From: Escherichia coli
GTDB taxonomy: Bacteria > Pseudomonadota > Gammaproteobacteria > Enterobacterales > Enterobacteriaceae
NCBI RefSeq assembly: GCF_017348835.2
Contig: NZ_CP071375.1
DNA: 64,000 bases
Direction: 5' to 3' (one strand)
The position numbers were made by a program. This document shows positions 29,601 to 32,600 of this stretch, in pieces. Every line of letters starts with the position of its first letter. Positions within the stretch are counted from its first letter, which is position 1.

Positions 29601-32600
29601 TGCGTTGCAGAAAGTCGGCAAATAATTAACACTTTGTCTCCTTTAGTGAAAATTTTTCCTTCTTCAGGCTCCAGTAGTAAATAATGTATTTGGCCAAATT
29701 GATCGGTGAGTTTTCCTTCGCAGGGATTACCTGAAGTGGCTTGATGACCGGTAATTAATGCCATGCTACCAATATATTCTTCTTCTGTAATAGCTGAACT
29801 ATGGTCGCGTGGAATCCAGGGCGCAACTATTTTACCGGTATAATGCACCGCAATAATCGTAAACAGTAAACTGACAGGAACCACGAACAGGTTCGACAGT
29901 GGTGATTGCCAGACCATGATGCAGGCATGCTGCAACAGGATGCCAATAAGACCAAAAAAACCAGCCAGCAAGCAGAGAACGACGAGAGCTGGCAATCTTC
30001 CGATATTGAGATAATGAAGTGCCTGGCTAATATGACCTGTGGTTATGGAATCATAATGGTCAAGATGTGCATCAAGAGCACCGGAGAGCATGTGACCGCA
30101 GATAAGCGCTAAAATTTCTAAAAGGCCGATCAACAGTACAAAGGAAATAGCGAAAAGATAAGGGGTATTATAGTCGGCGAATAAAATCATATGTCACTCC
30201 AATGTCCATTTAGTGACGCAATATTTACTTTGGGATAGTTTCCTTGCTTACATTTATCTTTGTTAATAATAACACATGTTAGAGAAGTTCTGGAAGAGAA
30301 AGTCTTTTAATATGGTTTTTTTATTTTTCACTAAAAAGTGTGATCGGGGACAATATATTTACGCACGTTATGTTTAAAGGCACTACACTGATTGGGGAAT
30401 ACTGAAATCAGAAAAAGCATATGGCCTTAAAAGGTATGCGATAACCGGAGGATGTGCTTATGGATCATAGTCTTAATTCTTTAAATAATTTCGATTTCCT
30501 GGCGCGTAGTTTTGCCAGAATGCACGCAGAAGGTCGCCCGGTCGATATTCTGGCCGTTACTGGTAACATGGATGAAGAACATAGAACCTGGTTTTGCGCA
30601 CGTTATGCCTGGTATTGCCAACAGATGATGCAAACCAGAGAACTTGAATTAGAACACTGATATTACGGGCCGTCTGGCCCGTTTTTGTGTTGCTTTATTC
30701 TGCTTTATCAATAGGCGGGATAGCCGGAGGAGATTGAAGATCTGCTACCGAATTATTGCGCGCCTCCAGTTCACTGATGCGCTGCTCCAGTAACGCCAGT
30801 TTTTCACGAGTCCGTAACAGGACTTGCGTCTGTACGTCGAATTCTTCGCGGCTCACCAGATCGAGACGCGTCAGCTGCGCTTGTAGGGTTTGGCGGATTT
30901 TTTTCTCCACATCTTCCCCGAACTCCCTGATTCCTTTAGGCATTGATTCGTGAACCTGGCGAGCGATTTGCTCAATTTTTTTCGGGTCAATCATTGTAGT
31001 TTCCCTGTACTGATAGGTGTTGAGTGCCATTGTAGTGCGATAAGGGTAAGTCATAAACCAGAATTATGTGAAGCTATGCGTTGCTGCCGCTAATCATTAG
31101 CGTTATAGTGAATCCGCTTATTCTCAGGGCGGGGCGAAATTCCCCACCGGCGGTAAATCAACTCAGTTGAAAGCCCGCGAGCGCTTTGGGTGCGAACTCA
31201 AAGGACAGCAGATCCGGTGTAATTCCGGGGCCGACGGTTAGAGTCCGGATGGGAGAGAGTAACGATTCTGTCGGGCATGGACCCGCTCACGTTATTTTGG
31301 CTATATGCCGCCACTCCTAAGACTGCCCTGATTCTGGTAACCATAATTTTAGTGAGGTTTTTTTACCATGAATCAGACGCTACTTTCCTCTTTTGGTACG
31401 CCTTTCGAACGTGTTGAAAATGCACTGGCTGCGCTGCGTGAAGGACGCGGTGTAATGGTGCTTGATGATGAAGACCGTGAAAACGAAGGTGATATGATCT
31501 TCCCGGCAGAAACCATGACTGTTGAGCAGATGGCGCTGACCATTCGCCACGGTAGCGGTATTGTTTGCCTGTGCATTACTGAAGATCGCCGTAAACAACT
31601 CGATCTGCCAATGATGGTAGAAAATAACACCAGCGCCTATGGCACCGGTTTTACCGTGACCATTGAAGCGGCTGAAGGTGTGACTACCGGTGTTTCTGCC
31701 GCTGACCGTATTACGACCGTTCGCGCAGCGATTGCCGATGGCGCAAAACCTTCTGATCTGAATCGCCCTGGCCACGTTTTCCCACTCCGCGCTCAGGCTG
31801 GTGGTGTACTGACGCGTGGCGGTCATACTGAAGCAACTATTGATCTAATGACGCTGGCAGGCTTCAAACCGGCTGGTGTGCTGTGTGAGCTGACTAATGA
31901 CGATGGCACGATGGCGCGTGCACCAGAGTGCATTGAGTTTGCCAATAAACACAATATGGCGCTTGTGACTATTGAAGACCTGGTGGCATACCGTCAGGCA
32001 CATGAGCGTAAAGCCAGCTGAAAACCGCTGCTTAAATTACTGCCTTAATCAAGAAACCGAAGTTGTAGCAGGCTTCGGTTTTTATTTTTCCCTGCTATGC
32101 AAGATGTTAATTCCGCTTCTCTTTCTATGAGAAAATTTCATTAATATCAGGCATTCTTTTTCATTATGATCAAAATCATATAATTGTTCCGTTATTATGC
32201 GACCATATGAATATATCCGAAAAAGGATATGTGAAATTTATGCGCTAAATGTTTAGTATTGTTAAATATTAAGGGTAAAAGGATGTTTATCGCCTGGTAC
32301 TGGATTGTATTGATTGCTCTGGTTGTGGTGGGTTATTTCCTGCATTTGAAACGTTATTGTCGGGCGTTTCGCCAGGACAGAGACGCACTGCTTGAAGCGC
32401 GGAACAAATACTTAAACAGTACGAGAGAAGAGACAGCCGAAAAGGTAGAATAAGGCTTTCGTGAAGCTGGCAGAAGTTGTCCATGCGCTGGACAACTTCT
32501 GATGTTGTTTTTAACCAATTCCCGCCGTTTGTAGCAGCACTAAACTGAATCCCATCACTGACATTCCACATAGTACGCCATAGCTGGGGTTATTATTAGG

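What the first reader, a model, noticed from the sequence alone, without database searches (positions are those of the whole stretch)
32283..32453. Unannotated-looking 56-aa single-pass membrane protein ORF between ribB and zupT
A short ORF (MFIAWYWIVLIALVVVGYFLHLKRYCRAFRQDRDALLEARNKYLNSTREETAEKVE) with a plausible RBS sits alone in a 490-bp AT-rich intergenic region. It has one hydrophobic helix followed by a basic/charged tail, typical of small regulatory membrane proteins. It may correspond to a known small-protein gene that I cannot name with confidence.
Basis: seen in the sequence. Interest (0 to 1): 0.3.

Follow-up and report, generated by a model that had tools for sequence, protein, structure and literature searches.

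The report
Known small membrane protein gene yqiD
The 56-codon ORF is the already annotated and experimentally detected E. coli small membrane protein gene yqiD; the one new point is that its conserved promoter coincides with a published "orphan" binding peak of the oxygen-sensing regulator FNR.

Summary
The ORF at 32283-32453 (+) is real and is yqiD (b4756). Its 56-aa product matches the protein VanOrsdel et al. 2018 detected by chromosomal tagging and ribosome profiling, and RefSeq names it "protein YqiD". ORF length alone is not above chance; the evidence is conservation and experiment. Codons 1-42 are under strong purifying selection (pN ~0.13 vs pS ~0.69), while the C-terminal tail evolves freely. 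The family is narrow and enterobacterial: 23 of 1.84 billion cluster representatives. The protein is predicted to be one N-terminal transmembrane helix with a basic cytoplasmic segment. The gene is a stand-alone unit with its own terminator and is always convergent with zupT (10-75 nt between stops), while the ribB distance ranges from 162 nt to over 6 kb. A palindrome, ATGATC[A/G]AAATCAT, lies 114-117 nt upstream of the ATG in 28 of 29 species. In K-12 it coincides with an FNR ChIP-seq peak whose target was listed as "Unknown", and with a sigma70 peak 2.5-fold higher anaerobically (Myers et al. 2013). I infer FNR-influenced expression of a small membrane protein that binds a larger membrane protein. 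The partner is unknown; ZupT is only a positional guess. Verdict: already known, low interest.

The parts
32052..32083 (+). ribB intrinsic terminator hairpin followed by a T-run. It marks the upstream limit of the yqiD unit.
   Evidence: Terminator scan. Fold energy is -16.0 kcal/mol with z = -3.4.
32084..32164 (.). Variable segment and insertion hotspot between the ribB terminator and the yqiD promoter.
   Evidence: Homology between genomes with different upstream neighbours starts at 32165. The ribB-to-yqiD distance ranges from 162 nt to more than 6 kb. The inserts seen are an assT/dsbA cluster or a fimbrial operon.
32160..32173 (+). FNR site A, TTCATTATGATCAA, with one mismatch to TTGAT-N4-ATCAA. 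Its left half is not conserved outside the K-12-type Escherichia sequences in the alignment.
   Evidence: Motif search. It is the reverse complement of the site TTGATCATAATGAA that Myers et al. list in Table S6 as lying at an FNR ChIP-seq peak. It maps to K-12 3183661-3183674. Its left half is not conserved in other species.
32166..32179 (+). Conserved palindrome ATGATC[A/G]AAATCAT (box B), an FNR-like TGAT-N4-ATCA core centred at 32172.5.
   Evidence: 13 of 14 positions are invariant in 33 distinct upstream sequences. It lies at -114 to -117 from the ATG in 28 of 29 species representatives.
32204..32209 (+). Putative -10 hexamer: CATATG here, TATAGT in C. freundii, TATATG in Salmonella. This is inferred; no TSS has been mapped.
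   Evidence: A32205, T32206 and A32207 are invariant. The FNR and sigma70 ChIP summits of Myers et al. map to about 32207-32209, given an inferred coordinate offset.
32215..32282 (+). Predicted leader of about 68 nt, including the Shine-Dalgarno AAGG at 32271-32274. It is conserved in sequence but has no conserved RNA structure.
   Evidence: Alignments. RNAalifold gives -1.0 kcal/mol with almost no covariation.
32283..32453 (+). yqiD coding sequence (56 aa plus stop).
   Evidence: Identical to K-12 b4756. Under purifying selection.
32471..32511 (+). yqiD intrinsic terminator: a 13-bp stem hairpin at 32471-32501 followed by ATGTTGTTTTT. It occupies the short spacer shared with the convergent zupT 3' end.
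   Evidence: Terminator scan. Fold energy is -22.6 kcal/mol with z = -4.3. Stem positions change in a compensatory way between species.
32511..33284 (-). zupT (ZIP-family metal transporter). It is the invariant convergent neighbour and only a positional candidate for a partner.
   Evidence: Annotation. It is convergent with 10-75 nt between the stop codons in 26 of 26 loci and adjacent in the loci.

Best explanation
SHOWN: the ORF is yqiD (b4756), a protein-coding gene already annotated and already shown to be translated in E. coli K-12. Its first 42 codons are under strong purifying selection. SHOWN BY PREDICTION: the product is one N-terminal transmembrane helix (residues about 2-22) followed by a basic, helical juxtamembrane segment, KRYCRAFRQDRDALLEAR, and a variable charged tail. 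By the positive-inside rule this gives an inner-membrane protein with the N-terminus outside and the C-terminus in the cytoplasm. SHOWN: the gene is a stand-alone unit, bounded by the ribB terminator upstream and its own strong terminator downstream. An invariant palindrome with an FNR-type core lies about 116 nt upstream of the ATG. SHOWN IN THE LITERATURE (K-12): FNR occupies this spot in vivo, and sigma70 occupancy there is 2.5-fold higher without oxygen. INFERRED: FNR, bound about 42 bp upstream of an unmapped TSS (class II geometry), boosts yqiD transcription when oxygen is low, on top of a basal aerobic level. INFERRED BY ANALOGY (AcrZ, MgtS, MgrB, CydX, KdpF): YqiD acts by binding a larger inner-membrane protein through its transmembrane helix and conserved juxtamembrane segment. 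The partner is unknown. ZupT is the best positional guess.
For: Identity: the K-12 CDS is identical and RefSeq names it 'protein YqiD'. The same 56-aa sequence gave an SPA-tag immunoblot band and was positive in tetracycline ribosome profiling (PMC6001520).

Coding: Nei-Gojobori on codons 1-42 gives dN/dS of 0.04-0.16 where dS could be computed, with pooled pN 0.13 against pS 0.69. Variable columns by codon position are 21/17/38 of 42, chi-square p = 4e-6. There are 17 invariant residues.

Topology: hydropathy and charge distribution. The AF2 model is a single helix over residues 2-55, with mean pLDDT of 84-88 over residues 1-20.

Unit boundaries: terminators. Homology between genomes begins at 32165 regardless of the upstream neighbour.

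Promoter: the palindrome is invariant in 33 distinct sequences and sits at -114 to -117 in 28 of 29 species, although synonymous sites in the CDS are near saturation. Myers et al. 2013 (PMC3688515) report an FNR peak at 3181647, called by three ChIP-seq callers and by ChIP-chip. They list the predicted site as 'at FNR ChIP-seq peak', give the target as 'Unknown', and report sigma70 signal of 395 aerobic against 1002 anaerobic, adjusted p = 6.7e-83.

Linkage to zupT: 26 of 26 loci, and also in a relative of about 45% identity.
Against: 1. No TSS is mapped, so the -42.5 geometry is an inference.
2. The FNR-like motif is not enriched above chance in the window: 35 matches against 34.6 expected. 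The conserved box has A rather than the consensus T at both outer positions.
3. Myers et al. placed this peak among those without an FNR-dependent expression change. However, yqiD was not annotated in 2013, so it could not have been scored.
4. The independent ChIP-exo study lists nothing here in the supplements held.
5. The promoter is clearly active aerobically (sigma70 signal 395; protein detected in aerobic LB), so any FNR effect may be modest.
6. zupT adjacency may be historical only. A 10-75 nt spacer leaves little room for insertions, and zupT is reported to be constitutive.
7. The invariant Cys26/His21 pair is not kept in distant relatives.
8. The amphipathicity of the cytoplasmic helix is not significant, p = 0.12.
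9. Membrane localisation and any binding partner are untested.
Confidence: 0.6

Rival explanations
1. yqiD is a real small membrane protein gene, but the FNR occupancy has no regulatory consequence. On this view the gene is essentially constitutive, and the conserved palindrome serves another factor or another role.
For: Myers et al. list many FNR peaks without any expression change. Aerobic sigma70 signal is substantial, and the protein was detected in aerobic LB cultures. Box B deviates symmetrically from the FNR consensus, with A at both outer positions. The ChIP-exo study's supplements have no entry for this region.
Against: The sigma70 peak, 2 bp from the FNR summit, is 2.5-fold higher anaerobically. 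The box is the most conserved element of the locus, and its distance to the conserved -10-like hexamer fits class II activation. Several sites that Myers et al. list as bound also start with A or G.
Confidence: 0.25
2. The main function lies at the RNA or transcription level. Convergent yqiD transcription, or its 3' end, would modulate zupT by antisense pairing or transcriptional interference, with the peptide being secondary.
For: The tail-to-tail arrangement is invariant, with 10-75 nt between stops. In one lineage (L007) the stops overlap by 4 nt, and in L040 they are 10 nt apart, leaving no room for a terminator, so the transcripts must overlap there.
Against: Strong purifying selection on the amino-acid sequence, with near-saturated synonymous change, shows the protein itself is selected. 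Most species keep a strong terminator hairpin between the genes. zupT is reported to be constitutive.
Confidence: 0.08
3. YqiD is a type I toxin-like, membrane-damaging peptide held in check by an antisense RNA.
For: It is small, hydrophobic at the N-terminus and charged at the C-terminus. It sits in an AT-rich intergenic region next to an insertion hotspot.
Against: It is single-copy, with a median of one place per genome. Its position is fixed and syntenic across genera. No sRNA family matches here. The protein accumulates to detectable levels from the chromosome in healthy cells. PADLOC gives no hit.
Confidence: 0.04
4. This is a chance ORF with no coding function.
For: 23% of composition-matched random regions contain an ATG ORF of at least 56 codons.
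Against: Conservation with three-base periodicity and low dN/dS. A tagged protein was detected and ribosome profiling was positive.
Confidence: 0.01

Closest known systems
YqiD (b4756) of E. coli K-12, small protein identified by VanOrsdel et al. 2018
   Same: The 56-aa sequence is identical, the position between ribB and zupT is the same, and the strand relations are the same.
   Different: Nothing differs; this is the same gene. In the region compared, the window differs from K-12 by a single base in the leader (32242) and by none in the CDS.
E. coli small inner-membrane proteins that modulate larger membrane proteins (AcrZ-AcrB, MgtS-MgtA/PitA, MgrB-PhoQ, CydX/CydH-CydAB, KdpF-KdpABC); from own knowledge
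   Same: Size of about 30-60 aa, a single transmembrane helix, and a stress- or condition-linked promoter. Several such genes (ynhF/cydH, yncL, blr, the yneM/mgtS region) also carry FNR peaks in the same dataset.
   Different: There is no sequence similarity to any of them. No partner is known and no phenotype is known. YqiD is not in an operon with a candidate partner; it is convergent with one.
Class II FNR-activated promoters (for example narG, nirB, dmsA); from own knowledge plus Myers et al. 2013
   Same: A TGAT-N4-ATCA core, in vivo FNR occupancy, higher sigma70 occupancy anaerobically, and a weak -10 hexamer about 25 bp downstream of the box.
   Different: The conserved box has A rather than T at both outer positions. 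The TSS is not mapped. FNR dependence of expression has not been measured. Aerobic basal activity is considerable.
'DUF4051', the name some NCBI and UniRef records give to Citrobacter and Salmonella homologues
   Same: It refers to the same protein family.
   Different: The Pfam-A copy searched here has no such model. Only sub-threshold hits driven by the transmembrane helix were found. The name carries no functional information.

Membership tests
YqiD (b4756) orthologue group | Sequence identity to K-12 YqiD | tested here: met
   The CDS is 100% identical to NC_000913.3 3183381-3183551 and to the published sequence.
YqiD (b4756) orthologue group | Genomic position: downstream of ribB and convergent with zupT | tested here: met
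   zupT adjacency holds in 26 of 26 species loci.
YqiD (b4756) orthologue group | The protein is actually made | not testable with these tools
   Literature only: SPA-tag immunoblot and tetracycline ribosome profiling in K-12 (PMC6001520).
Single-pass small inner-membrane protein (N-out, C-in) | One hydrophobic helix of about 20 residues | tested here: met
   Mean Kyte-Doolittle hydropathy of residues 2-20 is 2.43. AF2 gives a helix over 2-55 with mean pLDDT of 84-88 over residues 1-20.
Single-pass small inner-membrane protein (N-out, C-in) | Positive-inside charge bias that defines the orientation | tested here: met
   Residues 1-22 carry no charged residues. Residues 23-35 carry five positive and two negative charges. 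K23, R24, R30 and R33 are invariant.
Single-pass small inner-membrane protein (N-out, C-in) | Experimental membrane localisation and topology | not testable with these tools
   No data were found in the 20 papers that mention yqiD.
FNR regulon (class II activated promoter) | FNR box TTGAT-N4-ATCAA upstream of the gene | tested here: met
   Site A has one mismatch and box B has two. Box B is invariant across 33 sequences. The motif count in the window is not above chance, so the weight rests on conservation.
FNR regulon (class II activated promoter) | In vivo FNR occupancy | tested here: met
   Literature look-up: Myers et al. Tables S5 and S6 show a peak called by three ChIP-seq callers and by ChIP-chip. 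This was not confirmed in the Federowicz et al. supplements.
FNR regulon (class II activated promoter) | Box centred near -41.5 relative to the TSS | tested here: inconclusive
   The TSS is not mapped. The conserved -10-like hexamer at 32204-32209 implies about -42.5 to -43.5.
FNR regulon (class II activated promoter) | FNR- and oxygen-dependent change in expression | not tested
   There is only indirect support: sigma70 ChIP signal of 395 aerobic against 1002 anaerobic. yqiD was not annotated when the delta-fnr transcriptomes were analysed.
Type I toxin-antitoxin peptide | A cis- or trans-encoded antisense RNA partner, often in several copies | tested here: not met
   No Rfam sRNA was found at the locus. 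The gene is single-copy. PADLOC gives no hit.
Small-protein modulator of a transporter (ZupT as partner) | Physical or functional interaction with the transporter | not testable with these tools
   Only conserved adjacency supports it. The apparent ZupT-YqiD fusion P0122 is best explained as a fold-back chimeric contig.

The most novel reading that the evidence does not exclude
YqiD is an FNR-activated small membrane protein that binds the adjacent ZIP transporter ZupT (or another metal transporter) and retunes divalent-metal uptake (Fe2+, Zn2+ or Mn2+) when E. coli, Salmonella or Citrobacter enter anoxic conditions. This would explain both the orphan FNR peak between ribB and zupT and the invariant yqiD-zupT linkage.
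Probability: 0.1. Interest if true: 0.5.

Novelty: already known. Interest (0 to 1): 0.18.

Why it matters
The finding itself is ordinary: the gene is named, annotated and experimentally validated.

Its remaining value is that YqiD still has no known function, and this analysis gives it a testable context:
- a narrow enterobacterial family under strong purifying selection;
- a predicted N-out/C-in membrane topology;
- an invariant FNR-type box that coincides with an FNR ChIP peak left unassigned in 2013;
- strict linkage to zupT.

Assigning that orphan peak to yqiD is a small clean-up of the FNR regulon. It also suggests looking for a YqiD phenotype under oxygen limitation.

Tried and rejected
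1. ORF length as evidence: rejected. 23% of simulated regions contain an ORF at least as long.
2. FNR motif enrichment in the window: none, 35 matches against 34.6 expected. Only conservation and ChIP data carry weight.
3. ArcA control via the TGTTTA/TGTTAA repeats in the leader: the spacing is 10 bp rather than 11, and the ArcA ChIP supplements have no zupT or ribB entry.
4. Fur box: only 11 of 19 positions match, by hand alignment. The Fur ChIP supplements were not available.
5. zupT regulation as a clue: zupT is reported to be constitutive.
6. A conserved RNA structure in the leader: none, -1.0 kcal/mol with no covariation.
7. An amphipathic cytoplasmic helix: not significant, p = 0.12.
8. 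Metal binding by His21 and Cys26: these are invariant in the close family but not kept in distant relatives.
9. Domain, structure and defence libraries: NCBIfam, Pfam, PDB and PADLOC gave nothing above threshold.
10. The ZupT-YqiD 'fusion' protein P0122: it is a single 2-kb contig holding ZupT residues 1-72 (+), a YqiD-like part (+), and ZupT residues 215-257 (-), with a 7-nt microhomology at the junction. It was judged a fold-back chimera, not a Rosetta-stone fusion.
11. 'YqiD' in PMC5525287 appears in a reviewer comment about tail anchors alongside ElaB. From my own knowledge this is probably a slip for YqjD, and it is not evidence about this gene.
12. Independent FNR ChIP-exo confirmation: no entry was found.
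13. NAD-RNA paper supplement for a TSS: not held.
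Full report
**1. Observation**

The ORF is exactly as described. It sits in the 489-bp interval between the ribB stop (32021) and the zupT 3' end (32511). That interval is 38% GC against 50.5% for the window as a whole.

An AAGG at 32271-32274, 8 nt upstream of the ATG, is invariant across species. Residues 2-20 are strongly hydrophobic, and residues 23-35 carry five positive and two negative charges.

ORF length is not itself significant. 23% of composition-matched simulated regions contain an ATG ORF of at least 56 codons. The in-frame TTG at 32259 is unlikely to be the start, because 1-nt indels just upstream of the ATG break that frame in other species.

**2. Identity**

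A megablast of the intergenic region against 5,426 complete E. coli genomes hits 4,432 of them, and the feature under the match is "yqiD: protein YqiD" (annotation table). In K-12 MG1655 the gene is b4756 at 3183381-3183551. The window is collinear with K-12 (window position = 3215834 minus K-12 coordinate) and has an identical CDS.

VanOrsdel et al. 2018 (PMC6001520) list exactly this 56-aa sequence. They detected the protein by chromosomal SPA-tagging and immunoblot, and note it was also positive in a tetracycline ribosome-profiling screen. The finding is therefore an already known, already annotated gene.

**3. Coding evidence from comparison**

Homologues occur in Escherichia, Citrobacter and Salmonella. 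I fetched orthologous DNA from ten loci.
- **Core, codons 1-42:** synonymous differences are near saturation (pooled pS 0.69) while non-synonymous ones are few (pooled pN 0.13). dN/dS was 0.04-0.16 where dS could be computed.
- **Periodicity:** across 35 distinct CDSs, variable columns by codon position are 21/17/38 of 42 (chi-square p = 4e-6).
- **Tail, codons 43-56:** pN is about equal to pS, so the tail changes freely.
- **Invariant residues:** M1, I3, W5, Y6, W7, Y18, H21, K23, R24, C26, A28, R30, D32, R33, D34, A35 and L36.

**4. Family breadth**

A degenerate DNA pattern for A[FY]R[QH]DRDAL, scanned over one genome per species, found 29 YqiD-like loci. They are in Escherichia, Citrobacter, Salmonella, Intestinirhabdus alba and "Enterobacter sp. 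kpr-6". The other hits were chance matches inside unrelated ORFs.

A profile search of 1.84 billion cluster representatives found only 23 matches. A few are more distant relatives with the same plan: an N-terminal TM helix, a basic cluster, then A[FY]R[QH][DE]R[DE]A. In these relatives Cys26 and His21 are not kept. One distant relative keeps the ribB, yqiD-like, zupT order.

No Pfam, NCBIfam, PDB or PADLOC model matches above threshold. The label "DUF4051" survives only as a name in some source records.

**5. Protein anatomy**

AlphaFold2 on a 30-sequence alignment gives one continuous helix over residues 2-55. Mean pLDDT is 73, and 84-88 over residues 1-20. With no charged residue before K23 and a basic cluster after it, the positive-inside rule predicts the N-terminus outside and the C-terminus in the cytoplasm. 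This is an inference. The cytoplasmic segment is not significantly amphipathic (p = 0.12).

**6. Gene anatomy and neighbours**

ribB ends with its own terminator at 32052-32083 (-16 kcal/mol, z = -3.4). yqiD ends with a 13-bp-stem hairpin at 32471-32501 followed by a T-run (-22.6 kcal/mol, z = -4.3). Stem positions change in a compensatory way between species.

Homology between genomes starts at 32165 whatever lies upstream. The upstream neighbour is ribB, an assT/dsbA cluster or a fimbrial operon. The ribB-to-yqiD distance ranges from 162 nt to more than 6 kb. By contrast, zupT is convergent with 10-75 nt between the stop codons in 26 of 26 loci.

So yqiD, together with about 118 bp of upstream sequence, travels with zupT. 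The interval between the ribB terminator and 32165 is an insertion hotspot.

**7. The promoter and FNR**

The most conserved element of the whole locus is not in the CDS. It is the palindrome ATGATC[A/G]AAATCAT at 32166-32179. 13 of its 14 positions are invariant in 33 distinct sequences, and it lies 114-117 nt upstream of the ATG in 28 of 29 species. Its core, TGAT-N4-ATCA, is that of the FNR box TTGAT-N4-ATCAA (consensus from my own knowledge). The match alone is not above chance in this window: 35 matches against 34.6 expected.

About 25 bp downstream is a -10-like hexamer at 32204-32209 with an invariant A-T-A core. It reads CATATG here, TATAGT in C. freundii and TATATG in Salmonella. That places a TSS near 32215 and the box centre near -42.5, which is class II activator geometry. 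This is inferred; no TSS has been mapped.

The literature supplies in vivo data from Myers et al. 2013 (PMC3688515):
- **FNR peak:** at 3181647 (U00096.2), labelled "5' of zupT/ribB", called by three ChIP-seq algorithms and by ChIP-chip (Table S5).
- **Predicted site:** TTGATCATAATGAA, marked "at FNR ChIP-seq peak" with no nucleoid-protein overlap (Table S6). It is the reverse complement of window 32160-32173, overlaps the conserved palindrome, and is shifted from it by 6 bp.
- **Target:** Table S9 lists target, other regulators and TSS all as "Unknown".
- **sigma70:** a peak 2 bp away with signal 395 aerobically and 1002 anaerobically, adjusted p = 6.7e-83 (Table S2).

If the tabulated site coordinate is the site's first base (an offset of 1978 to U00096.3, inferred from the site sequence), both summits map to window 32207-32209, which is on the putative -10 hexamer.

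None of the 20 papers that mention yqiD connects it to FNR. I therefore propose that this orphan FNR peak belongs to the yqiD promoter.

Caveats:
- The left half of the site chosen by the Myers position-weight matrix is not conserved outside the K-12-type Escherichia sequences in the alignment. The conserved box has A at both outer positions.
- Expression in delta-fnr was never scored for this gene.
- A ChIP-exo study has no entry here in the supplements held.
- The promoter is clearly active aerobically.

**8. Mechanism**

Shown: this is a translated small gene under purifying selection, with its own promoter and terminator.

Shown in K-12 by others: FNR and oxygen-sensitive sigma70 occupancy at that promoter.

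Inferred:
- FNR raises yqiD transcription under oxygen limitation.
- The protein is an N-out/C-in inner-membrane helix.
- By analogy with AcrZ, MgtS, MgrB, CydX and KdpF, it works by binding a larger membrane protein.

ZupT is the only candidate the data point to, and only by position. The short shared 3' spacer could keep the two genes together for purely historical reasons, and zupT is reported to be constitutive.

**9. Rivals**

- **FNR binding is incidental (about 0.25).** This fits the substantial aerobic activity and the non-consensus outer bases. It does not fit the anaerobic sigma70 increase or the extreme conservation of the box.
- **An RNA-level antisense role against zupT (about 0.08).** This fits lineages where the stop codons overlap (L007) or lie 10 nt apart (L040). 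It does not explain selection on the amino-acid sequence.
- **A type I toxin (about 0.04).** This is disfavoured by single-copy fixed synteny, the absence of an sRNA family and the protein accumulating in healthy cells.
- **A chance ORF (about 0.01).** This is excluded.

**10. Things that led nowhere**

ArcA, Fur (supplements not held), conserved leader RNA structure, amphipathicity and His/Cys metal binding all gave nothing.

An apparent ZupT-YqiD fusion protein, P0122, turned out to be a single 2-kb contig. It holds ZupT residues 1-72 (+), a YqiD-like part (+), and ZupT residues 215-257 (-), with a 7-nt microhomology at the junction. It is most likely a fold-back chimera.

**11. Verdict**

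However, the gene is already known (yqiD, b4756), so novelty is "already known" and interest is low.

The modest added value is fourfold: a quantitative case for purifying selection, the narrow phyletic range, the strict zupT linkage, and the assignment of a published orphan FNR peak to the yqiD promoter. The last of these suggests that the still-unknown function of YqiD should be sought under oxygen limitation.

Noticed in passing
window 32165-32510, compared with L005/L006: E. coli carries two deeply divergent yqiD alleles. The K-12 type is in 4432 of 5426 complete genomes. A second type, in 995 genomes (for example Nissle 1917 and ATCC 11775), is 69% identical at the protein level and labelled only 'hypothetical protein' in the records listed. 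Identity is 43-87% per 60-nt bin across the yqiD segment and jumps to 93-100% exactly at the zupT stop. Synonymous divergence in the core (pS 0.70) is as deep as against Salmonella. A recombinant form exists (P0013). Both allele types also occur in other Escherichia species.
   Followed up: partly
window 32084-32164: The interval between the ribB terminator and the yqiD promoter is an insertion hotspot. In other genomes an arylsulfotransferase/DsbA cluster or a chaperone-usher fimbrial operon sits there, and the ribB-to-yqiD distance ranges from 162 nt to more than 6 kb.
   Followed up: partly
window 32220-32282: The predicted yqiD leader is highly conserved in sequence. Most species have TTAACGTTAAATGTTTA[AG]T[GA]ATGTTAAAT, which includes a TTAACGTTAA palindrome that the K-12 type lacks. 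It has no conserved RNA structure, and no ArcA entry was found in the ChIP tables. The reason for the conservation is unexplained.
   Followed up: partly
L007 2431-2444 and L040: In the most divergent lineage ('Enterobacter sp. kpr-6' type) no exact palindrome was found within 140 nt upstream of the ATG (L040). L007 has a degenerate form, ATGATCGGTGTCAT, only about 69 nt from the ATG, followed by a GC-rich and unrelated leader. The yqiD and zupT stop codons overlap by 4 nt in L007 and are 10 nt apart in L040, so no terminator fits between them.
   Followed up: partly
L078 1499-2027: A 125-aa predicted protein (P0122) joins ZupT residues 1-72 to a YqiD-like C-terminus. The contig also carries the ZupT C-terminus on the opposite strand, and the junction has a 7-nt microhomology (ATGTTCG). 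It is most likely a fold-back assembly chimera rather than a real fusion.
   Followed up: yes
window 31116-31264: An FMN riboswitch (RF00050, 120.9 bits) lies upstream of ribB, as annotated in RefSeq. A weak, sub-threshold STnc240-like match overlaps the ribB terminator at 32032-32090.
   Followed up: no
window 32242: This is the only difference from K-12 MG1655 in the yqiD unit: G here and A in K-12, within the predicted leader. A bioRxiv GWAS study (10.1101/2025.06.10.658842) lists yqiD among genes whose expression varies with cis non-coding variants. I did not determine which variant is involved.
   Followed up: no
window 33400-34215 (ygiD): The longest ORF for ygiD is 271 aa, but RefSeq and several gene calls use a 262-aa version that starts 27 nt downstream. 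The two start choices alternate between the loci fetched.
   Followed up: no
Myers et al. 2013 Table S5/S9 (K-12, outside the window): Several other FNR ChIP peaks in the same tables lie at or next to small-protein genes (ynhF/cydH, yncL, blr, and 5' of yneM/mgrR) or are labelled as lying at gene ends with an unknown target. Other orphan peaks might likewise mark small genes annotated later.
   Followed up: no
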